From the IMG/VR virus record IMGVR_UViG_2718218358_000002: a stretch of DNA of 36,691 bases; one strand, written 5' to 3'. Within the stretch, counting starts at the first letter, position 1. Every line of letters begins with the position of its first letter. A program made the translations under genes and the position numbers. This document shows positions 1 through 27,524 of this stretch, in pieces. The notes below the pieces were generated by a model. That model had not been told where the DNA came from and did not search any database. It worked only from the letters and a program-made list of their open reading frames with translations. Source of the stretch: a virus. Taxonomy: Duplodnaviria > Heunggongvirae > Uroviricota > Caudoviricetes.

Positions 1-900
1 TTAACGCAATAATGGACAATCTGGTGGTAATCGACAACGCAACGCCGCCGGAAGTATTTCAATATGAAAGTTTTGTCCGCTCAACGGTTCGCCATCAAGA
101 TTAAAAGTGATTTCGTGTGGGGCTTGTATATCAAACCACGACGAAGCGCCTTCGATAATATTCGGGTTATCTTCGTCAGATTTTAAGGTTGATACGAGAG
201 CCGGAAGAATTTCATCGCCGGTAAAAATGCGCAGTTGCAGCAAGCCATCGTTAATTAACGCGTTCGGACACAATTGCTGACCGCCACCGGCCTGACGCCC
301 GTTACCAATACCAATGACCAGGGCGTCACCTTGCCAGTGAAAGTTTTCACCGCGGATTTCACAACGGTCCGGTTGCAGAGTATCCATGCGCATTAAGCCA
401 TGAATGATGTAAGAGACGCCACCCAGCGCGGCTTTTAATTTTTCCGGCGTTTCTGTGGTAATACGCGTCCCAAATCCGCCTGTCGCCATATTAATAAAAC
501 AGGTTTGTTTGTTGACCTGCGCCATATCTATCGCAATGGCGTTACCGGCAATTGCCAGTTTCAGCGCCTTATCCAGTGCCTCAGGAATCCCTACACTGGT
601 GGCAAAATCATTGGCGGTTCCTAATGGCAAAATTCCCAGCGCGGGTATGTCATCCCCCTCACACTGAATCAACGCCGTAGAAACTTCATTAATGGTGCCA
701 TCGCCACCACCGGCAATCACCGTTGCGACGCCCAACTTCCGGGCCTCCTCTACATATCGTGCGGCATCGCCTTTCTCCCAGGTGACCCGCACATGGATCG
801 TCATTCCTTCCTCACGCAACAGCATAATTGCTTCGCGCAAGGGTAGATTGTCAGTACTTTTGCCATTAAGAATCAGTAAGCTGGCGGGAAATTCTGCCAT
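1..900 (-). CDS. yegS: Lipid kinase YegS (diacylglycerol kinase catalytic-domain family), 299 aa
   Basis: Full-length minus-strand ORF; protein begins [17 protein letters not shown] and carries the GGDGT nucleotide-binding motif of DAGK-family kinases; matches my memory of E. coli YegS in length and sequence. Confidence 0.85.
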
Positions 901-1896: not shown

Positions 1897-2910
1897 TTAC
1901 TCTACTGTGGACACTGTGTGGACACTCTCGGCCTCAGTACCACCTCTTAGCGGATTAAGAGAAATGGCGTCCTGAAGGTACTCTGGCGCAAAATGAGCGT
2001 AAACCATAGTTTGCTCAATCCGCGTGTGACCTAGTATCCGTTGTAGCGTGATAATACTTCCTCCATTAATCATGAAATGAGTGGCAAAGCTGTGCCTTAG
2101 TGCATGTGTGGCTTGCCCCGTTGGCAAATCCGGTTTTATTGCTTTCATTGTTCGTCTGAAGCGAGGGTAATCAGCATCAGGGAATAAAAAACCTCGTTTG
2201 TTATCCGCGATCATTTTGGCAACAGCCTCTGAGATCGGGACGGTGCGTGGTTTGTTTGTTTTCGTTTTAACAAACGTGACGCGGTTATGGATGATATTTT
2301 CTGCTTTCAAACGAGCTGCTTCTCCCCAACGTGCTCCTGTACTCAGGCAAAGAATCGCAATCTTTTTATTGTCGCCGTCAAGTGCTGCAAGCAGTAAGGC
2401 AATTTCTTCCTGTGTGAGATAGCCTGTTTCTGGTTTTTCCTCCTTAAGCCTCTTTGTCCCTCTGATAGGGTGCTCACCAAAGAATAACTCCGCTTCAATC
2501 AGGGCTGTAAACATGCCGCTAATACATGTTAAATCACGATTGATACTCGAAGGTTTAATACCCTGACTTCTTCGGGTGGCGCAGTACTGGCTGATAAGGG
2601 ATTTCGTGATTTGAAATGCGCATGGGTCATTCGTTATTTTTGTGAAGATTTCAATTTTTCCAAGATTAGATTTCCCATGCTCTTCGTGTTTACCCTTTAA
2701 ATCCCACCAGATCTGTGTCAGTTCCGACAGACGTCGTTTGTCTGTTGGTTTTGATAGCCATTCTTTATTGTGGTGGTTGTACAACGTGTATTTTTCGAAA
2801 GCGACAGCTTCGCTTTTCTTATCAAACTTCCTACGGATGCGTTTTCCGTTACGTCCAGTAGGGCGGATGTCCACTTCATATCGACCATCATCGAGTTTTT
2901 TGATTGCCAT
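1897..2910 (-). CDS. int: Tyrosine integrase, 337 aa
   Basis: 337 aa as in P2 Int; C-terminal catalytic region with R...HxxR...Y context (ALRHSFATHF, LGHTRIEQTMVYAH); adjacent to att core and to C. Confidence 0.9.
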   Translation of the reverse strand: MAIKKLDDGRYEVDIRPTGRNGKRIRRKFDKKSEAVAFEKYTLYNHHNKEWLSKPTDKRRLSELTQIWWDLKGKHEEHGKSNLGKIEIFTKITNDPCAFQITKSLISQYCATRRSQGIKPSSINRDLTCISGMFTALIEAELFFGEHPIRGTKRLKEEKPETGYLTQEEIALLLAALDGDNKKIAILCLSTGARWGEAARLKAENIIHNRVTFVKTKTNKPRTVPISEAVAKMIADNKRGFLFPDADYPRFRRTMKAIKPDLPTGQATHALRHSFATHFMINGGSIITLQRILGHTRIEQTMVYAHFAPEYLQDAISLNPLRGGTEAESVHTVSTVE

Positions 2911-7812: not shown

Positions 7813-9285
7813 ATGGTTGAAAATTTGAGTGAGATTAGAACATCGACCGTGAATGCATTGTTAGAGAAGGTAAGGCAGAATAATTATGGGAAGTATCTGT
7901 TAAAAGCTAAAATTGGGCGAATTCGCGGATTTTCGGGAGAAGATATTACTTTTGAATTTCCTGTTACAGCCTTGGTTGGTCCTAATGGTAGTGGAAAATC
8001 CTCTGTTCTCGGCGTTGCAGGATGTGCCTATAAAGAAATTAAGCCTAGCGTTTTCTTTCCCAAAAGTGCAATTGGTGATGAAAGCATGGCGGGGTGGAAA
8101 GTTGAATATGATATAATTGATAAAGTTATTAATCCTCGACAAACAGTTCGCAGAACTAGTAGTTTTAGAAGCGCTAAATGGGCGAGAGATGAAGTATTAT
8201 CTAGAGATGTATATTTCTTTGGTATCGAACGGACTGTCCCTGCTGGCGAGAAGACAAAGTACAAAAAGTTAACCCGTTCCTCTTACCAACATACAGGCAG
8301 TTTATCAACGTTGAGTGCAAATGTCGCAAAACAAATAGAACATATTTTGGGCAAGGATGTGTCTGCTTTTAATGTGACAGATATTGGCCATGATGAAAAG
8401 TTTTTTGTAGGCAATAATAATGGTAGCCGTTATTCTGAATTCCATTTTGGTGCGGGTGAGTCATCAATTATAAGAATGGTTTCTGAGATAGAGAATGCAT
8501 CTGATAACAGTTTGGTTCTTATTGAAGAAATTGAAAATGGGCTGCATCCGGTAGCAACGAGACGAATGGTCGAATATCTAATTGATGTTGCCAGTCGTAA
8601 ATCAATTCAGGCTGTTTTTACCACACATAGTGATTATGCCCTGATGCCATTACCACAGGAAGCAATATGGGCATGTATTGATGGACGTCTTAGAAAAGGA
8701 CGGTTAACTGTTGAATCTTTAAGGGCTATATCTGGTAGGGTTGACAAAAAATTAGCTATCTTTGTTGAGGATGAGTTTGCTAAATGCTGGGTTGATACTA
8801 TTCTTCGGGAAAGATTAGGTAGTGATTATGATCAATTAGAAGTACATGCCGTCGCTGGCGATGGAAATGCTGTATCTATTCATAAGTCACACAAGGCAAA
8901 TCCTTCAATTAAATTTAAATCGCTTTGTATTATTGACGGAGATTCTTCACAAGAAGATAGTGATGAAAATGGTGTCTTTAGATTGCCGGGGACTCAACCT
9001 GAACGTAGTGTATTCGATGACATACTTGTGAAAATTGATAATATATTGGCAATACTTACTGTTTCTTGCCAACTGCCTCCAGAATCTCAAGGTAAAGTGA
9101 GAACAGTGGTTGAATCTGTTTCAAGAACGAATCGAGATCCCCATCTTATTTTTAATCAAATAGGCATGGAATTAGGCTTCATTTCAGAAGTGATTATTCG
9201 GGGTGCATTTTTAAGCCTTTGGGCAAGGCAAAATGAAGATTATTGTAGTGATTTAGTAAACAAAGTTAAGGCCCTTCTGGATTGA
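7813..9285 (+). CDS. ABC-type ATPase with C-terminal TOPRIM-like domain (OLD/PARIS-like candidate defence protein), 490 aa
   Basis: Walker A GPNGSGKSS; Walker B/D-loop LVLIEEIENGLHP; H-loop FTTHS; C-terminal IFVEDEF glutamate and CIIDGDS DxD motifs of a TOPRIM fold; AT-rich; occupies the P2 tin/old position between A and cos; own RBS AAAGAGG. Confidence 0.7.
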   Translation: MVENLSEIRTSTVNALLEKVRQNNYGKYLLKAKIGRIRGFSGEDITFEFPVTALVGPNGSGKSSVLGVAGCAYKEIKPSVFFPKSAIGDESMAGWKVEYDIIDKVINPRQTVRRTSSFRSAKWARDEVLSRDVYFFGIERTVPAGEKTKYKKLTRSSYQHTGSLSTLSANVAKQIEHILGKDVSAFNVTDIGHDEKFFVGNNNGSRYSEFHFGAGESSIIRMVSEIENASDNSLVLIEEIENGLHPVATRRMVEYLIDVASRKSIQAVFTTHSDYALMPLPQEAIWACIDGRLRKGRLTVESLRAISGRVDKKLAIFVEDEFAKCWVDTILRERLGSDYDQLEVHAVAGDGNAVSIHKSHKANPSIKFKSLCIIDGDSSQEDSDENGVFRLPGTQPERSVFDDILVKIDNILAILTVSCQLPPESQGKVRTVVESVSRTNRDPHLIFNQIGMELGFISEVIIRGAFLSLWARQNEDYCSDLVNKVKALLD

Positions 9286-17963: not shown

Positions 17964-18393
17964 TGCCGTCACGGTGCTGAAAACTAACCCCGATATGCTG
18001 CGGATATTCGTGGATAACGGGAGTATTGCCTCCACACTGGCGACGTCGCTGTCGTTCGAAAAGCGTTACACGCTCAATGTCATTGTGACCGACTTTACCG
18101 GTGATTTTGACCTGCTCATCGTGCCGGTGCTGGCGTGGCTGCGGGAAAATCAGCCCGACATCATGACCACCGACGAAGGCCAGAAAAAGGGCTTCACGTT
18201 TTATGCAGACATCAACAATGACAGCAGCTTTGATATCAGCATCAGCCTGATGCTGACCGAGCGCACGCTGGTCAGTGAGGTGGACGGCGCGCTGCATGTG
18301 AAGAATATCCCGGAACCTCCGCCGCCGGAGCCGGTCACCCGCCCGATGGAGCTTTATATCAATGGCGAACTGGTGAGTAAGTGGGATGAATGA
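17926..18393 (+). CDS. R: Tail completion protein R, 155 aa
   Basis: 155 aa as in P2 R. Confidence 0.85.
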   Translation: MLKPDSLRRALTDAVTVLKTNPDMLRIFVDNGSIASTLATSLSFEKRYTLNVIVTDFTGDFDLLIVPVLAWLRENQPDIMTTDEGQKKGFTFYADINNDSSFDISISLMLTERTLVSEVDGALHVKNIPEPPPPEPVTRPMELYINGELVSKWDE

Positions 18394-18838
18394 GTTTAAG
18401 CGTTTTGAAGACAGGCTGACCGGACTGATTGAGTCGCTGTCACCGTCAGGGCGTCGGCGACTGAGCGCCGAACTGGCGAAACGTCTGCGTCAGAGTCAGC
18501 AGCGTCGGGTGATGGCACAGAAAGCCCCGGACGGCACACCCTACGCACCACGCCAGCAGCAGAGCGCCAGAAAAAAGACCGGTCGCGTTAAGCGAAAAAT
18601 GTTTGCGAAACTTATCACCAGTCGTTTTTTGCATATCCGCGCCAGCCCTGAACAGGCATCAATGGAGTTTTACGGCGGGAAGTCACCGAAAATAGCCAGT
18701 GTGCATCAGTTCGGTCTGTCGGAAGAAACCCGGAAAGACGGTAAGAAAATTGAATATCCGGCGCGTCCTCTGCTCGGCTTTACCGGTGAGGATGTGCAGA
18801 TGATTGAAGAGATTATCCTGGCTCACCTGAATCGTTAG
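18386..18838 (+). CDS. S: Tail completion protein S, 150 aa
   Basis: 150 aa as in P2 S. Confidence 0.85.
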   Translation: MNEFKRFEDRLTGLIESLSPSGRRRLSAELAKRLRQSQQRRVMAQKAPDGTPYAPRQQQSARKKTGRVKRKMFAKLITSRFLHIRASPEQASMEFYGGKSPKIASVHQFGLSEETRKDGKKIEYPARPLLGFTGEDVQMIEEIILAHLNR

Positions 18839-18913
18839 CTTTAATCATCTGAGAATATAAGATAGAAATCAATTGATTAGCATAATTTATTTTGAATTTT
18901 CATGTTAATAAAT

Positions 18914-18936
18914 AAAAGGCCAGTTATTGGCCTTTT
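18914..18936. terminator. Bidirectional intrinsic terminator between convergent S and the minus-strand cargo gene
   Basis: AAAAGGCCA-GTTAT-TGGCCTTTT: GC stem flanked by A-run and T-run, so it reads as a terminator on both strands. Confidence 0.6.
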
Positions 18937-18940
18937 ATCA

Positions 18941-20014
18941 TTACTTTCCATTTTTTAATGAATTGATTAACGATGCTATTTGCTCAATGCCATCAAATGT
19001 AGATGGTATCTTATCATCGGATAGCATGATGTTTGAAAATACTACGTCTTCGAATTTTGAAAGCGCTTCCGGATTGTTTTTCCTTATCTCTGAGGAATAG
19101 TCGCTATAACTCTGAATGAACTGACAAAGGCTCTTTCTGAGTTCTATTTGCATAATCTGAGTTCGTAACGATATATGATTTAGCAGTACAACTCTAAAGT
19201 AATACATGAAAATCAATGTAACTGATGCAAAAGGTAGTGCTGACATAAAATATGTGGCAGCATTTGTCGTTTCGAGAGCTGGTAATTTATGCATTCCATA
19301 GTATATCAGCGGGGAGGGAATGATTATAGCCAAGATGATAAGAATTATTCTTGATAGCATGATTTCACTTTCTTTCTTTTTGCCAAGTGAATTAAAGCCT
19401 TCAAACAATCCAACAAAATTAAATGCGACCTCATACCCTTTTAATGACTCTTTGATTGACTCTATTTTGGCATGTTGCTCCTTTAAGAAGGAGTCGCACT
19501 TTTCGAAAAATTGACGCCCTTCGTTTAAACTATCAATGTATTTTTTATATGTGTCAACATTGCTGGAGCTTAAAACTTCTTTAACCATTGCTAATGGCAG
19601 TTCTCTAAGAGAAAAGTCTATCTGTGCTCTGCTCCGCTCATCGAATTCATTATAGTTATACAGAGCAAAATCCTTGATGGTTCTTAGTGGTGAAAAGTGA
19701 GACTCTATTTCCGGAGAGAGAATGCTTGGTTCAATGATAAATCTAAAAAAGCAAGTGAATATAAGGTTGATGCTGTTGTTATCTTCTCCCTTTTCTCTTA
19801 AGAAACTTTTAAAGGTGTCGCCAATCATAGCAATGTTGTACTGGGATTTTTTGTCCCAATCTTCAGGGTTTTCGGAAATGAAGTTTATTGCTTGAGCAAT
19901 TATTTTGTTTCTGCTTGATTCAAAGTTTGTGCCGGGAGTCAGCGTGTTCAAAAAGACCAGATAATCTTTGAACAATTCTTTCATTGTTTCTGACGAGAAA
20001 AAGTAAGTACTCAT
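18941..20014 (-). CDS. Hypothetical membrane-anchored protein, 357 aa from ATG 20014 (cytoplasmic N-domain, two C-proximal TM helices); accessory gene at the S/V (P2 orf30) locus
   Basis: Minus-strand ORF in strongly AT-rich DNA between S and V; two hydrophobic helices (LSRIILIILAIIIPSPLIYYG and ATYFMSALPFASVTLIFMYYFRVVLL); the ORF-track start at 20110 would overlap V, so ATG at 20014 (or 19984) is preferred. Confidence 0.65.
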   Translation of the reverse strand: MSTYFFSSETMKELFKDYLVFLNTLTPGTNFESSRNKIIAQAINFISENPEDWDKKSQYNIAMIGDTFKSFLREKGEDNNSINLIFTCFFRFIIEPSILSPEIESHFSPLRTIKDFALYNYNEFDERSRAQIDFSLRELPLAMVKEVLSSSNVDTYKKYIDSLNEGRQFFEKCDSFLKEQHAKIESIKESLKGYEVAFNFVGLFEGFNSLGKKKESEIMLSRIILIILAIIIPSPLIYYGMHKLPALETTNAATYFMSALPFASVTLIFMYYFRVVLLNHISLRTQIMQIELRKSLCQFIQSYSDYSSEIRKNNPEALSKFEDVVFSNIMLSDDKIPSTFDGIEQIASLINSLKNGK

Positions 20015-20100
20015 AATGGATTTTGTTGTCCCTTGTTGTTCTGTGCACCAGAAATCGTGGTGTGATTTACTTCGAGATTGTACAGAATCATTATTATCGA

Positions 20101-20730
20101 ATGAATGCACAATACAATGAAATTCTTCGCTTTATACGCAATATGATTCGCACTGGCATTATCGTCGAAACCGACCTTAATGCCGGTCGCTGCCGTGTGC
20201 AGACCGGCGGCATGTGCACCGACTGGCTTCAGTGGCTGACCCATCGCGCCGGTCGTTCGCGCACATGGTGGGCACCTTCCGTGGGGGAACAGGTGCTGAT
20301 TCTGGCCGTGGGCGGTGAACTCGACACGGCGTTCGTTCTGCCGGGGATTTATTCCGGCGATAACCCCGCGCCGTCGGCGTCGGCGGATGCCCTGCATATC
20401 CGTTTCCCTGACGGGGCGGTGATTGAGTATGAACCTGAAACCAGTGCACTCACGGTAAGCGGAATTAAAACGGCCAGCGTGACGGCTTCTGATTCTGTTA
20501 CTGCCACGGTGCCGGTGGTCATGGTGAAAGCATCAACCCGCGTCACCCTGGACACACCGGAGGTGGTCTGCACCAACAAGCTGATTACCGGCACGCTGGA
20601 AGTGCAGAAGGGCGGGACGATGCGCGGCAACATTGAACACACCGGCGGTGAACTTTCATCAAACGGGAAGGTACTGCATACCCATAAACACCCCGGCGAC
20701 AGCGGCGGCACAACCGGGAGTCCTCTATGA
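20101..20730 (+). CDS. V: Baseplate spike protein V, 209 aa
   Basis: ATG at 20101 (MNAQYNEIL); size near P2 V. Confidence 0.85.
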   Translation: MNAQYNEILRFIRNMIRTGIIVETDLNAGRCRVQTGGMCTDWLQWLTHRAGRSRTWWAPSVGEQVLILAVGGELDTAFVLPGIYSGDNPAPSASADALHIRFPDGAVIEYEPETSALTVSGIKTASVTASDSVTATVPVVMVKASTRVTLDTPEVVCTNKLITGTLEVQKGGTMRGNIEHTGGELSSNGKVLHTHKHPGDSGGTTGSPL

Positions 20731-25457: not shown

Positions 25458-27461
25458 ATGATTATGAGTGAAAATGATACAACCCCAAAGAAGTCTACAA
25501 GCCAGGTTAACAAAGCGGTATTCTTTACATCTGCTTTGCTAATTTTCCTTCTTGTCGCCTTTGCCGCCGTATTCCCGGATGTCGCCGACAAAAATTTTAA
25601 ACTACTTCAGCAACAAATCTTCACGAATGCCAGCTGGTTCTACATACTTGCTGTGGCCCTGATTTTACTGAGCGTCACGTTCCTTGGACTCTCACGTTAC
25701 GGTGATATAAAGCTGGGCCCAGACCATGCGCAGCCTGATTTCAGCTACCACTCCTGGTTCGCGATGCTTTTTTCGGCAGGGATGGGGATCGGCCTGATGT
25801 TCTTTGGCGTTGCCGAACCTGTGATGCATTATCTTTCGCCACCTGTCGGCACTCCAGAGACCGTTGCGGCAGCGAAGGAAGCCATGCGCCTGACGTTCTT
25901 CCACTGGGGTCTGCACGCATGGGCAATTTATGCCATCGTGGCGCTGATTCTGGCCTTTTTCAGTTACCGTCACGGTCTGCCTTTAACGCTGCGTTCTGCG
26001 CTCTATCCCATTATCGGCGATCGCATTTACGGGCCTATAGGCCACGCGGTTGATATCTTCGCCGTGATAGGCACTGTCTTTGGCGTTGCAACATCGCTGG
26101 GTTACGGTGTATTGCAGGTGAATGCCGGTTTGAACCATCTTTTCGGCGTGCCCATCAATGAAACGGTACAGGTCATTTTGATCGTGGTCATCACGGGGTT
26201 AGCGACGATTTCGGTGGTGTCCGGCCTGGACAAGGGAATACGCATCCTGTCTGAGCTTAATCTGGGCCTGGCGGTGTTGCTCCTGGCGCTGGTCTTGTGC
26301 CTGGGTCCCACTGTGCTTCTGCTGAAGTCATTTGTGGAAAATACGGGTGGTTATCTGTCGGAACTGGTGAGTAAAACGTTCAACCTTTACGCGTATGAAC
26401 CCAAGTCGAGCAACTGGCTGGGGGGCTGGACATTATTATACTGGGGATGGTGGCTTTCATGGTCGCCGTTTGTAGGTATGTTCATTGCACGCGTTTCCCG
26501 CGGCAGGACAATTCGTGAGTTCGTGACTGGCGTGTTGTTTGTTCCCGCCGGCTTTACGCTCATGTGGATGACGGTGTTTGGAAACAGCGCCATCTATCTC
26601 ATCATGAACCAGGGCGCCACTGACCTCGCCAATACCGTTCAGCAGGATGTTGCGCTTGCCCTGTTTAATTTCCTGGAGCATTTCCCGTTCTCTTCCGTGC
26701 TGTCATTCATTGCAATGGCGATGGTCATCGTCTTCTTTGTAACGTCTGCTGATTCGGGGGCAATGGTTGTGGATACTCTGGCATCAGGTGGGGTGGCAAA
26801 CACGCCCGTCTGGCAGCGAATTTTCTGGGCATTGCTCATGGGCGTTGTTGCTATTGCCCTGCTGATCGCAGGGGGGCTGAGTGCGTTGCAAACCGTAACG
26901 ATAGCGAGTGCATTGCCCTTCTCAGTTATCTTATTAATATCCATATACGGACTGTTAAAAGCCCTGCGTCGGGATTTGACCAAGCGTGAAAGCCTTAGCA
27001 TGGCGACTATTGCTCCTACGGCTGCACGTAACCCAATTCCCTGGCAGAGAAGGTTACGCAATATCGCGTATTTGCCGAAGCGCTCTCTTGTGAAACGTTT
27101 TATGGACGACATTATCCAACCCGCCATGACGCTGGTTCAGGAGGAACTTAACAAGCAGGGAACGATAAGCCACATCAGTGACGCCGCCGAGGATCGTATT
27201 CGCCTTGAAGTCGATTTGGGCAACGAGCTGAATTATATATATGAAGTGAGGCTTCGCGGGTATAACTCACCGACCTTCGCGCTCGCTGCGCTGGATAATG
27301 ATGAGCAGCAGAGTGAACAACATCGATATTATCGCGCTGAAGTCTATCTCAAAGAGGGCGGCCAAAATTATGATGTAATGGGCTGGAATCAGGAACAGCT
27401 GATTAATGACATACTGGACCAGTACGAAAAACACCTGCACTTCCTGCATCTGGTTCGTTAA
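25458..27461 (+). CDS. BCCT-family transporter, BetT-like (choline/betaine-type), 667 aa; prophage cargo
   Basis: BCCT signature WTLLYWGWWLSWSPFVG; about 12 TM helices; C-terminal cytoplasmic tail ending QEQLINDILDQYEKHLHFLHLVR, resembling the E. coli BetT tail as I recall it; located in the G-FI variable region. Confidence 0.75.
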   Translation: MIMSENDTTPKKSTSQVNKAVFFTSALLIFLLVAFAAVFPDVADKNFKLLQQQIFTNASWFYILAVALILLSVTFLGLSRYGDIKLGPDHAQPDFSYHSWFAMLFSAGMGIGLMFFGVAEPVMHYLSPPVGTPETVAAAKEAMRLTFFHWGLHAWAIYAIVALILAFFSYRHGLPLTLRSALYPIIGDRIYGPIGHAVDIFAVIGTVFGVATSLGYGVLQVNAGLNHLFGVPINETVQVILIVVITGLATISVVSGLDKGIRILSELNLGLAVLLLALVLCLGPTVLLLKSFVENTGGYLSELVSKTFNLYAYEPKSSNWLGGWTLLYWGWWLSWSPFVGMFIARVSRGRTIREFVTGVLFVPAGFTLMWMTVFGNSAIYLIMNQGATDLANTVQQDVALALFNFLEHFPFSSVLSFIAMAMVIVFFVTSADSGAMVVDTLASGGVANTPVWQRIFWALLMGVVAIALLIAGGLSALQTVTIASALPFSVILLISIYGLLKALRRDLTKRESLSMATIAPTAARNPIPWQRRLRNIAYLPKRSLVKRFMDDIIQPAMTLVQEELNKQGTISHISDAAEDRIRLEVDLGNELNYIYEVRLRGYNSPTFALAALDNDEQQSEQHRYYRAEVYLKEGGQNYDVMGWNQEQLINDILDQYEKHLHFLHLVR

Positions 27462-27468
27462 CAGCAAC

Positions 27469-27497
27469 ATGCCGCCACAGAGGCGGCATTTATTTAT
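27469..27497 (+). terminator. Rho-independent terminator after the BetT-like gene
   Basis: ATGCCGCC-ACAGA-GGCGGCAT 8-bp stem followed by TTATTTAT. Confidence 0.65.
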
Positions 27498-27524
27498 CCC
27501 GGCTGCAATATGAGGGAATGCAGA

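What the first reader, a model, noticed from the sequence alone, without database searches (positions are those of the whole stretch)
18839..20100. AT-rich minus-strand cargo gene between S and V encoding a 2-TM protein of unknown family
Between the tail completion gene S and the baseplate gene V sits one antisense gene (18941-20014) in markedly AT-rich DNA, bounded by a bidirectional terminator at 18914-18936. The 357-aa product has a cytoplasmic N-domain of about 240 aa, two adjacent TM helices and a tail of about 60 aa. That topology recurs in abortive-infection and superinfection-exclusion effectors, but I recognise no catalytic motif. This is the classical P2 orf30 moron position, so it is accessory rather than structural. 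It could be a single-gene membrane-disrupting defence or exclusion protein that has not been described.
Basis: partly seen in the sequence, partly recalled or inferred. Interest (0 to 1): 0.7.

Follow-up and report, generated by a model that had tools for sequence, protein, structure and literature searches.

The report
Unknown membrane cargo gene, P2 prophage
Between two tail genes of a P2-type prophage sits a backwards-facing, foreign-looking gene for an inner-membrane protein; its family is large and widespread, matched nothing in the family, defence or structure databases I searched, and is most likely a phage-exclusion or suicide-defence protein, though nobody has tested that.

Summary
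A 357-aa gene (18941-20014, minus strand) lies in a 35% GC cassette between gpS and gpV (54-58% GC). It ends at a hairpin terminator that works on both strands. The gene is under purifying selection (dN/dS 0.14-0.23).

The protein has a confident all-helical N-domain, a long helical hairpin whose tip is two TM helices (223-241, 254-273; N-in/C-in), and a highly conserved cytoplasmic tail. It belongs to phrog_9373 (function unknown). The family has at least 928 clusters at 50% identity and no match in Pfam, NCBIfam, PADLOC or PDB.

In IMG/VR, 65 of 79 homologues occupy this same S/V gap, and 71 of 74 are antisense to V. In species-representative genomes most copies are single-gene AT-rich islets across Proteobacteria, with no conserved partner gene. 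A sister subfamily sits on Klebsiella phage-plasmids.

In E. coli the S/V gap is polymorphic: about 60% empty, about 25% P2 orf30-type, 3.8% this gene, and rarer alleles including a RelA/SpoT toxSAS-like gene.

My best reading, untested, is a single-protein membrane effector for abortive infection, with confidence about 0.4. Superinfection exclusion and a phage-lifecycle role remain open.

The parts
18839..20100 (.). AT-rich cargo cassette that fills the whole gpS-gpV gap. Similarity between alternative alleles stops a few bases after the gpS stop codon and resumes only around the gpV ATG (20101).
   Evidence: GC is 0.32-0.38 in the cassette against 0.55-0.61 in the flanks. The cassette is 100% identical in several E. 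coli chromosomes.
18941..20014 (-). CDS of 357 aa (stop codon 18941-18943), a member of phrog_9373.
   Evidence: dN/dS is 0.14-0.23.
19565..20014 (-). Residues 1-150: a compact seven-helix cytoplasmic N-domain. It is among the least conserved parts of the protein, with only the stalk helix and the periplasmic loop scoring lower.
19364..19558 (-). Residues 153-217: a long stalk helix ending in the conserved pre-TM motif FNFVGLYxGF (198-207) and a K-rich anchor.
   Evidence: AF2 models a single helix from 153 to 231. The motif has conservation 0.70 and the stalk, the motif, TM2 and the post-TM2 helix (274-310) have no indels across 72 sequences.
19292..19348 (-). TM1, residues 223-241.
   Evidence: Kyte-Doolittle peak of 2.4. 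The model is helical here.
19256..19291 (-). Residues 242-253: a short periplasmic loop of 10-14 aa, the least conserved segment.
   Evidence: Conservation 0.21 and net charge -0.1. Aeromonas-type members carry an insertion of about 25 aa here.
19196..19255 (-). TM2, residues 254-273, with invariant P261, Y271 and F273.
18944..19195 (-). Residues 274-357: the cytoplasmic post-TM2 helix and C-tail, the most conserved part of the family. The consensus motifs are RVxLxNYNSxRAQxxQIELRKSLCQFIQSY and KFExVIFSNIMxSEDKIPSTFDGIEQ.
   Evidence: Conservation is 0.76 and 0.69. Invariant columns are listed. AF2 confidence is low for 331-357 despite the conservation.
18912..18938 (.). Bidirectional intrinsic terminator. 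It ends the rightward late operon that ends with gpS and, on the other strand, the cargo gene.
   Evidence: pair I15. P2 has a terminator annotated at the equivalent place.
20015..20100 (.). 86-bp divergent control region. By analogy with P2 it should hold the late promoter for V, and on the other strand the still unidentified promoter of the cargo gene.
   Evidence: P2 annotates an activator-binding site and the V transcription start in this interval. No consensus sigma-70 promoter was found here on the minus strand. The region is allele-specific. Both functions are inferred, not shown.
18386..18838 (+). gpS (tail completion / virion morphogenesis), the left anchor gene.
   Evidence: Pfam Phage_tail_S in the homologous locus.
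20101..20730 (+). gpV (baseplate spike), the right anchor gene.
   Evidence: Pfam Phage_base_V.

Best explanation
The gene encodes a self-contained inner-membrane defence effector that is carried and expressed by the prophage.

Shown: both termini face the cytoplasm. A compact, fast-evolving N-terminal helical domain sits on a rigid two-helix stalk. The tip of that stalk is a two-TM hairpin. The segments at the membrane-cytoplasm interface and the C-tail are the conserved core.

Inferred: the N-domain acts as a sensor or autoinhibitor that responds to a cue from an infecting phage. The conserved hairpin and tail then oligomerise and permeabilise or depolarise the inner membrane. Infection is aborted before progeny are made. 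This is how single-protein membrane Abi/Sie proteins of temperate phages are thought to work.

No partner gene is needed.
For: 1. Position and expression logic of a lysogen-expressed moron. The gene is antisense to the late tail operons, has its own bidirectional terminator, and lies in one of the three known P2 moron regions (PMC3091744; PMC6823313).

2. The site behaves as a small cargo hotspot. All alternative alleles examined are AT-rich (33-36% GC). They include a RelA/SpoT toxSAS-like gene that matches PADLOC candidate PDC-S33, the P2 orf30 type (3 TM), and an HNH-like 246-aa gene.

3. It works alone. There is no conserved neighbour in 61 genome loci. 37 of 45 assessable loci are single-gene AT-rich islets. 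The gene is AT-richer than its flanks in 59 of 59 loci, by 15 GC points on average.

4. It is mobile. Three loci have tRNA-Leu, then an integrase, then this gene. A sister subfamily sits antisense on Klebsiella phage-plasmids.

5. It shows a sensor/effector split. N-domain conservation is 0.43 against 0.63-0.76 for TM2, the post-TM2 helix and the tail. 69 of 87 substitutions against the E. albertii allele fall in residues 1-180. The Acinetobacter/Moraxella clade replaces the N-domain and keeps the C-module.

6. The periplasmic loop is short (10-14 aa) and unconserved, so the business end faces the cytoplasm and membrane.

7. It evolves faster than the structural genes beside it: 30-45% identity against 54-82% for V, W and J. 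In E. albertii it is 76% while W and J are 99-100%.

8. Some neighbours in non-phage loci are defence-type: AbiP/putAbiC twice, and JukA, ThsB, a type I S subunit, PDC-S20, PDC-S35 and PDC-S48 once each.
Against: - There is no phenotype of any kind. The function is inferred from architecture and context only.
- There is no recognisable toxin, pore or catalytic motif. There is no match to any PADLOC, Pfam or NCBIfam family, even as recurrent weak hits over 72 members.
- Structural matches are generic helical hairpins or bundles. The full-length model has pTM 0.48, and oligomerisation was not modelled.
- The defence-neighbour signal is small, at most 9 of 150 neighbours, and has no control. Most neighbours are housekeeping genes.
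- The same family has kept the same slot and orientation across very divergent P2-like phages (65 of 79 viral loci). Classical defence hotspots show high turnover. This fidelity fits a phage-centred role at least as well.
- No consensus promoter or good Shine-Dalgarno sequence was found upstream (sequence).
Confidence: 0.4

Rival explanations
1. Superinfection exclusion at the DNA-entry step. The protein sits in the lysogen's inner membrane and blocks genome injection by incoming phages, as proposed for HK97 gp15, T4 Imm and P22 SieA. The cell is not killed.
For: It is a prophage moron inside the tail-gene module that encodes an inner-membrane protein, the same layout as HK97 gp15 (my own knowledge). 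The same family has stayed in the S/V gap of divergent P2-like phages, which suggests a benefit tied to phage competition. P2 Orf30 at the same site is also a multi-TM protein.
Against: The only periplasm-exposed part is a 10-14 aa unconserved loop, while all conserved surfaces are cytoplasmic. About 300 of the 357 residues are cytoplasmic, far more than a plug needs. Intact copies are kept as lone chromosomal genes in many taxa without a prophage around them. That is hard to explain for a phage-specific entry block.
Confidence: 0.2
2. A phage-lifecycle or lysogenic-conversion accessory that is not defence. Examples are a modulator of lysis timing, of membrane physiology or stress tolerance in the lysogen, or of prophage induction and maintenance.
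Against: It is dispensable for P2-like phages: about 60% of the sampled E. coli junctions are empty, and P2 itself lacks it. It is antisense to the late operons, so it is not co-expressed with lysis or tail genes. Most genomic copies are outside prophages. It matches no holin, spanin or PspA family.
Confidence: 0.2
3. A selfish or largely neutral passenger. This would be a mobile AT-rich gene, possibly mildly toxic or addictive, that persists by horizontal transfer without benefiting host or phage. Another minor possibility is a counter-defence protein.
For: It is AT-rich everywhere and moves as a lone gene. Several copies are split or truncated (L008, L034, L050, L057, L058, L061, L064). A 201-aa truncated form is recurrent in E. 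coli (P0004). A Y1 transposase lies beside the E. albertii allele.
Against: There is clear purifying selection (dN/dS 0.14-0.23). Length and indel-free geometry are strictly conserved across hundreds of clusters. Most copies are intact. No mobility gene is consistently attached.
Confidence: 0.1

Closest known systems
phrog_9373 (PHROGs v4, function unknown)
   Same: Full-length profile match: E = 1.6e-133, residues 15-356 on profile positions 9-387 of 388. This is the family the gene belongs to.
   Different: The family carries no annotation, so membership says nothing about function.
P2 Orf30 (NP_046770), the classical occupant of the S/V gap
   Same: Same locus, same antisense orientation, AT-rich (34% GC), nonessential, and a predicted membrane protein.
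   Different: No sequence similarity (BLASTP E = 1.6). It is 261 aa with three dispersed TM segments, not a C-proximal TM hairpin. It is an alternative allele, not a relative.
SieB of lambda and P22 (single-gene, membrane-associated abortive exclusion in temperate phages)
   Same: One prophage gene and a membrane protein, proposed to abort superinfecting phages. This is the closest functional analogy (my own knowledge).
   Different: No Pfam SieB match for the query at E <= 1. Size and architecture differ. The functional resemblance is untested.
HK97 gp15, T4 Imm and P22 SieA (entry-blocking superinfection exclusion proteins)
   Same: Inner-membrane proteins encoded by phages. HK97 gp15 is a moron within the tail-gene module (my own knowledge).
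   Different: Those are small proteins thought to act at the entry site. Here about 85% of the protein is cytoplasmic and the periplasmic loop is unconserved. There is no homology.
SLATT-type and other two-TM effectors of CBASS, retron and Pycsar systems; AbiZ
   Same: A two-TM helical hairpin joined to cytoplasmic helices, thought to permeabilise the membrane on activation.
   Different: No match to Pfam or PADLOC models. No nucleotide-signalling, reverse-transcriptase or other partner gene. The sensor appears to be built into the same polypeptide.
CapRel-type fused toxSAS defence genes
   Same: A RelA/SpoT-domain, 359-aa, antisense, AT-rich gene occupies exactly this S/V gap in other E. coli P2-like prophages (L065). 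This shows that the slot can carry defence-type single genes.
   Different: It is an unrelated protein: soluble, with a nucleotide pyrophosphokinase domain. Its CapRel identity was not tested beyond the RelA_SpoT and PDC-S33 matches.

Membership tests
phrog_9373 | Significant full-length match to the family profile | tested here: met
   E = 1.6e-133, 446.7 bits, residues 15-356.
P2 Orf30 family | Sequence similarity to P2 Orf30 (NP_046770) | tested here: not met
   The best BLASTP segment has E = 1.6 over 16 residues. True orf30-type alleles are 84-97% identical to P2 Orf30.
SLATT two-TM effectors | Match to a Pfam SLATT model | tested here: not met
   No SLATT family at E <= 1 for the query. 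None is among the 25 most recurrent families over 72 members.
SLATT two-TM effectors | Genomic association with SMODS, SLOG, reverse-transcriptase or other signalling partners | tested here: not met
   No conserved neighbour in 61 genome loci. The recurrent neighbour clusters are generic paralogues: response regulators, ABC transporters, UvrC, FadAB.
SieB (Pfam SieB) and Abi families in PADLOC (AbiZ, AbiP and others) | Profile match | tested here: not met
   PADLOC gives 0 families at E <= 1 for the query. Only scattered single-member hits with E >= 0.002 appear over 72 members. Pfam gives no SieB or Abi hit for the query.
Holins and lysis-cassette proteins | Holin family match and co-orientation within the lysis operon | tested here: not met
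   No holin family hit. The gene is antisense and lies downstream of R and S. The prophage has its own holin, endolysin and LysABC.
ESCRT-III / PspA / IM30 membrane-remodelling proteins | Fold match beyond the alpha-hairpin, and a family profile match | tested here: inconclusive
Four-helix-bundle executioner domains (MLKL 4HB, HeLo, plant NLR CC) | Specific structural match of the N-domain | tested here: inconclusive
Anti-phage defence system (generic) | Enrichment next to known defence genes | tested here: inconclusive
   At most 9 of 150 immediate neighbours match defence-type PADLOC models at E <= 1e-8. There is no matched control, and most neighbours are housekeeping.
Anti-phage defence system (generic) | Protection against phage when expressed | not testable with these tools
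   This needs plaque and growth assays.
P2-like moron at the S/V (orf30) region | Non-structural, dispensable, compositionally foreign gene between gpS and gpV, with alternative alleles in related phages | tested here: met
   Literature: PMC3091744, PMC6823313.

The most novel reading that the evidence does not exclude
This is the founding member of an undescribed, very widespread family of single-protein, membrane-acting abortive-infection effectors: at least 928 clusters at 50% identity, in Gamma-, Beta-, Delta- and Epsilonproteobacteria, Nitrospirales and Flammeovirga. The sensor domain would be a fold not seen before, built into the same polypeptide. The family's long-term home would be the gpS/gpV gap of Peduoviridae, with a sister branch on phage-plasmids, and it would seed bacterial chromosomes as lone AT-rich genes. 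The S/V gap would then be a third, so far unexploited, defence hotspot of P2-like phages.
Probability: 0.35. Interest if true: 0.7.

Novelty: new member of a known kind. Interest (0 to 1): 0.5.

Why it matters
P2-like prophages are in about 29% of complete E. coli genomes (1581 of 5426 carry the S-V junction). Their cos-adjacent hotspot has already yielded many defence systems (PMC9122126). The S/V (orf30) moron region has not been mined in the work I could find.

This gene's family is large and compact, needs no partner, and matched nothing in the family, defence and structure databases searched here. It is therefore a cheap and well-defined candidate for a one-gene cloning and plaque assay.

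If it protects, it adds a new effector and sensor architecture and a new anchor pair (gpS/gpV) for hotspot mining in viromes. If it does not, the strict positional fidelity across Peduoviridae points to an unknown phage-biology role. That role would also bear on what P2 Orf30 does, a question left open since the genome was sequenced.

Tried and rejected
- Sequence family searches. Pfam, NCBIfam and PADLOC on the query gave only sub-threshold noise: DUF3810, Mlp, TrbE.
- Recurrent-weak-hit test. All 72 family members were scanned against Pfam and PADLOC. No family recurred in more than 5 members.
- PDB profile search. Nothing below E = 0.66.
- Homology to P2 Orf30. Rejected.
- Conserved partner gene. 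Rejected. The apparent recurrent neighbours were paralogous housekeeping families.
- Domain fusions that would reveal function. None found. The divergent subfamilies in Acinetobacter, Moraxella and the Klebsiella phage-plasmids have N-domains with no Pfam match.
- Flanking repeats or target-site duplications around the cassette. Nothing beyond chance.
- Promoter. No consensus sigma-70 promoter upstream of the gene.
- Literature. Searches by accession, PHROG id and topic found no paper on this family.
- Internal start at M219 that would give an Esc-like short product. Rejected because the Met is not conserved.
Full report
**1. What is in the sequence**

The window is a P2-like prophage next to yegS. 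Between gpS (18386-18838, plus strand) and gpV (20101-20730, plus strand) there is one long ORF on the minus strand.

- Start codon. The mechanical ORF runs to a GTG at 20110. The real start is the ATG at 20014, giving 357 aa. The 71 homologues aligned with it begin M-x-x-x-F-F, with F6 invariant. RefSeq annotates 347 aa in one genome and 357 aa in another.
- Composition. The gene is 35.3% GC (GC3 38%). gpS is 53.6% and gpV is 58.3%.
- Terminator. A perfect hairpin with 11-bp arms sits at 18912-18938, two bases beyond the stop codon. A T-run follows it on both strands. The minus-strand RNA folds at -16.2 kcal/mol, z = -4.3. P2 has a terminator annotated at the same place.
- Selection. dN/dS is 0.14 against a 92.6%-identical E. 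coli allele and 0.23 against the E. albertii allele.
- Verdict. The corrections are small: the terminator spans 18912-18938, the TM helices are at about 223-241 and 254-273, the N-part is about 220 aa and the tail is about 84 aa.

**2. The protein**

Hydropathy gives two adjacent TM segments. Over 72 family members the mean net charge is +2.2 in the 15 residues before TM1, -0.1 in the loop and +2.1 after TM2. Both termini are therefore cytoplasmic, and only a 10-14 aa loop reaches the periplasm.

AlphaFold2 with a 72-sequence alignment gives an all-helical model with mean pLDDT 82. Its parts are:
- a compact seven-helix N-domain (residues 9-149), which modelled alone gives pLDDT 93.7 and pTM 0.89;
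- one long helix (153-231);
- a short helix (234-249);
- a second long helix (252-310).

This is a helical hairpin whose tip is the two-TM pair, followed by two C-terminal helices of low confidence.

Conservation runs opposite to what a periplasm-facing function would predict:

| Segment | Mean majority-residue frequency |
|---|---|
| Post-TM2 helix | 0.76 |
| Pre-TM motif FNFVGLYxGF | 0.70 |
| C-tail (KFExVIFSNIMxSEDKIPSTFDGIEQ) | 0.69 |
| TM2 | 0.63 |
| TM1 | 0.46 |
| N-domain | 0.43 |
| Stalk | 0.40 |
| Periplasmic loop | 0.21 |

The stalk, the pre-TM motif, TM2 and the post-TM2 helix have no indels in any of the 72 sequences.

**3. What it is related to**

- Known families. There is no match in Pfam, NCBIfam or PADLOC. 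Scanning all 72 members found no recurrent weak hit. A PDB profile search found nothing.
- The one firm assignment is phrog_9373, function unknown (E = 1.6e-133).
- Family size. The word-index search found 346 proteins, and every one that carries a source name is called hypothetical or uncharacterised. An exhaustive profile search of 1.84 billion cluster representatives found 928 clusters with E <= 1e-3 and 672 with E <= 1e-30. The listed best hits are almost all about 355 aa and match end to end.
- P2 Orf30, which gives the locus its name, is unrelated. It is a 261-aa protein with three TM segments.

**4. Where the family lives**

*P2-like phages.*
- In IMG/VR, 79 contigs encode a homologue. 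In 65 of them the gene lies between gpS and gpV homologues, and 72 have at least one P2 tail gene beside it.
- In 71 of the 74 loci where V is present the gene is antisense to V. The three exceptions are Aeromonas-type.
- Identity to the query falls to 30-45% where S is 41-54% and V, W and J are 54-82%. The cargo therefore diverges faster than its structural neighbours but has kept its slot.
- The E. albertii allele is 76% identical while W and J are 99-100%. It also has a Y1 transposase beside it.
- Yersinia phages vB_YenM_31.17 and 06.16-2 carry it at the same place.

*Chromosomes.*
- In one genome per species (GTDB), 61 loci were found in Gamma-, Beta-, Delta- and Epsilonproteobacteria, a Nitrospirales MAG and Flammeovirga. 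Only 5 or 6 are in a P2-like S/V gap.
- There is no conserved neighbour. The recurrent clusters are generic paralogues.
- The gene is AT-richer than its flanks in 59 of 59 loci, by 15 GC points on average. In 37 of 45 assessable loci the AT-rich islet is the gene alone.
- Three loci have tRNA-Leu, then an integrase, then this gene.
- Seven or so copies are split or truncated.

*Divergent branches.*
- Acinetobacter and Moraxella keep only the C-module (profile positions from about 141 on) behind a different N-domain, next to fadAB.
- A 388-aa sister subfamily sits antisense between the ligase and primase genes of ~110-kb Klebsiella phage-plasmids. It varies from 58 to 94% identity to the query among the listed homologues, most of which sit on contigs of about 110 kb.
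- No informative domain fusion was found.

**5. The S/V gap as a cargo site**

The S-V junction is present in 1581 of 5426 complete E. coli genomes, and 60 of these (3.8%) carry this gene. I took an evenly spaced sample of 60 from the 1584 matching records.

| State of the gap | Approximate share | Detail | Calls |
|---|---|---|---|
| Empty | 60% | About 72-bp gap | 50 |
| P2 orf30 type | 25% | 84-97% identical to P2 Orf30 in the two loci checked | 53, 54, 96 |
| This gene | 5% of the sample (3 of 60); 3.8% by full count | — | 8, 50 |
| 246-aa sense-strand gene | 2 of 60 | CxxC...H...CxxC HNH-like pattern; same length and position as the 741-bp ORF described in phage R18C | 52, 96; PMC6823313, |
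| RelA/SpoT gene | 1 of 60 | Antisense, 359 aa, matches PADLOC candidate PDC-S33 | 51, 55, 56 |

All alleles examined are 33-36% GC. Similarity between alleles stops just after the gpS stop codon and resumes around the gpV ATG (20101).

The region is one of three known moron regions of P2-like phages (PMC3091744; PMC6823313). The main hotspot study covered only the cos-adjacent locus (PMC9122126). A later survey lists the old/tin locus, the Z/fun locus and a tail/cI locus, but not this one.

**6. How it most likely works**

*Shown:*
- it is a lone, mobile, selected gene;
- it encodes an N-in/C-in two-TM hairpin protein;
- its conserved core faces the cytoplasm and the membrane interface;
- its N-domain is variable and, in one clade, replaced;
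- it sits in a prophage cargo slot that elsewhere carries defence-type genes.

*Inferred:*
- the N-domain senses an infection cue or holds the effector in check;
- the conserved hairpin and tail then assemble and breach or depolarise the inner membrane, aborting infection.

I give this about 0.4.

*Rivals:*
- An entry-blocking exclusion protein, about 0.2. The unconserved minimal periplasmic loop and the many prophage-free chromosomal copies count against it.
- A non-defence phage or lysogen accessory role, about 0.2. The positional fidelity across Peduoviridae favours it. Dispensability, antisense orientation and the extra-phage distribution count against it.
- A selfish or neutral passenger, or a counter-defence protein, about 0.1. 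Purifying selection and the rigid architecture count against it.

The neighbour test for defence association was weak. At most 9 of 150 neighbours matched defence-type models, there was no control, and most neighbours were housekeeping genes.

**7. Novelty and verdict**

The locus type is known. The gene family matched nothing in the databases I searched and no paper I could find describes it. It is unrelated to known Abi, Sie or two-TM effector families as far as sequence and fold searches can tell.

I class it as a new member of a known kind: a prophage moron encoding a membrane accessory protein. There is a realistic chance, about 0.35, that it founds a new single-protein defence family and marks the gpS/gpV gap as a further P2 defence hotspot. 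Interest is 0.5.

Noticed in passing
window 7813-9285 (+): This 490-aa ATPase in the cos-adjacent (old/tin) hotspot matches PADLOC HEC-04 almost end to end (E = 2.9e-225), with AAA_21/AAA_15 domains. The region is 39% GC. The prophage therefore already carries one listed defence candidate.
   Followed up: partly
window 25458-29752: The Z/fun hotspot between gpG and gpFI holds a 667-aa BCCT betaine/carnitine/choline transporter, a 430-aa DUF2254 membrane protein, and an antisense AT-rich 269-aa gene (28943-29752, about 36% GC) with no Pfam or PADLOC match. This is unusual metabolic cargo for a P2 hotspot. The full block is in 34 E. coli genomes.
   Followed up: partly
L065 834-1913 (-), E. coli SC455, same S/V gap: An alternative allele of the gap: an antisense 359-aa 'GTP pyrophosphokinase' with a RelA_SpoT domain that matches PADLOC candidate PDC-S33 (1e-16). 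It looks like a fused toxSAS of the CapRel kind, at 33% GC.
   Followed up: partly
L066 771-1511 (+), E. coli 20AR1039, same S/V gap: Another allele: a 246-aa gene on the same strand as S and V, at 36% GC, with no Pfam or PADLOC hit. It carries a CxxC...EH..P..W...CxxCN pattern that looks HNH-like. It has the same length (741 bp) and position as the ORF16 reported in phage R18C (PMC6823313).
   Followed up: no
L070-L072 7157-7591 (-), E. albertii prophages: The 76%-identical E. albertii allele shares the S/V gap with a 144-aa Y1_Tnp (IS200/RAYT-type) transposase gene. This is the only mobility gene seen attached to the cassette.
   Followed up: no
L030, L038, L136 (Aeromonas-type P2-like loci): In these loci the family gene is on the same strand as V, the gap is larger (1.5-3.3 kb) with an extra gene, and the protein has an insertion of about 25 aa in the periplasmic loop.
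   Followed up: partly
L045-L049, L061 (Acinetobacter); L051, L052 (Moraxella): This chromosomal clade keeps the C-terminal stalk, two-TM hairpin and tail module but has an unrelated N-domain of about 165 aa. In Acinetobacter it sits at a fixed place next to fadA and fadB.
   Followed up: partly
L073 4572-5738 (+), Klebsiella phage-plasmid pJN2-26, and P0259-P0378: A 388-aa sister subfamily lies antisense between the ligase and primase genes on this ~110-kb Klebsiella phage-plasmid. Its homologues, mostly on contigs of about 110 kb, are unusually variable (58-94% identity to this protein), and every one that carries a source name is called hypothetical or uncharacterised.
   Followed up: partly
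window 1-900 (-) and 1897-2910 (-): The left end of the window is the host gene yegS (DAGK_cat/YegS_C domains), followed by the prophage integrase. The prophage therefore sits at the yegS-side attachment site, where E. coli K-12 keeps its cryptic P2 remnant (my own knowledge).
   Followed up: no
P0004 (201 aa, 56 member sequences); L090 and L091: A recurrent truncated form of this gene exists in E. coli, 100% identical over the first 56% of the protein. Two IMG/VR prophages match only over about 645 nt. This suggests repeated inactivation that removes the TM module.
   Followed up: no
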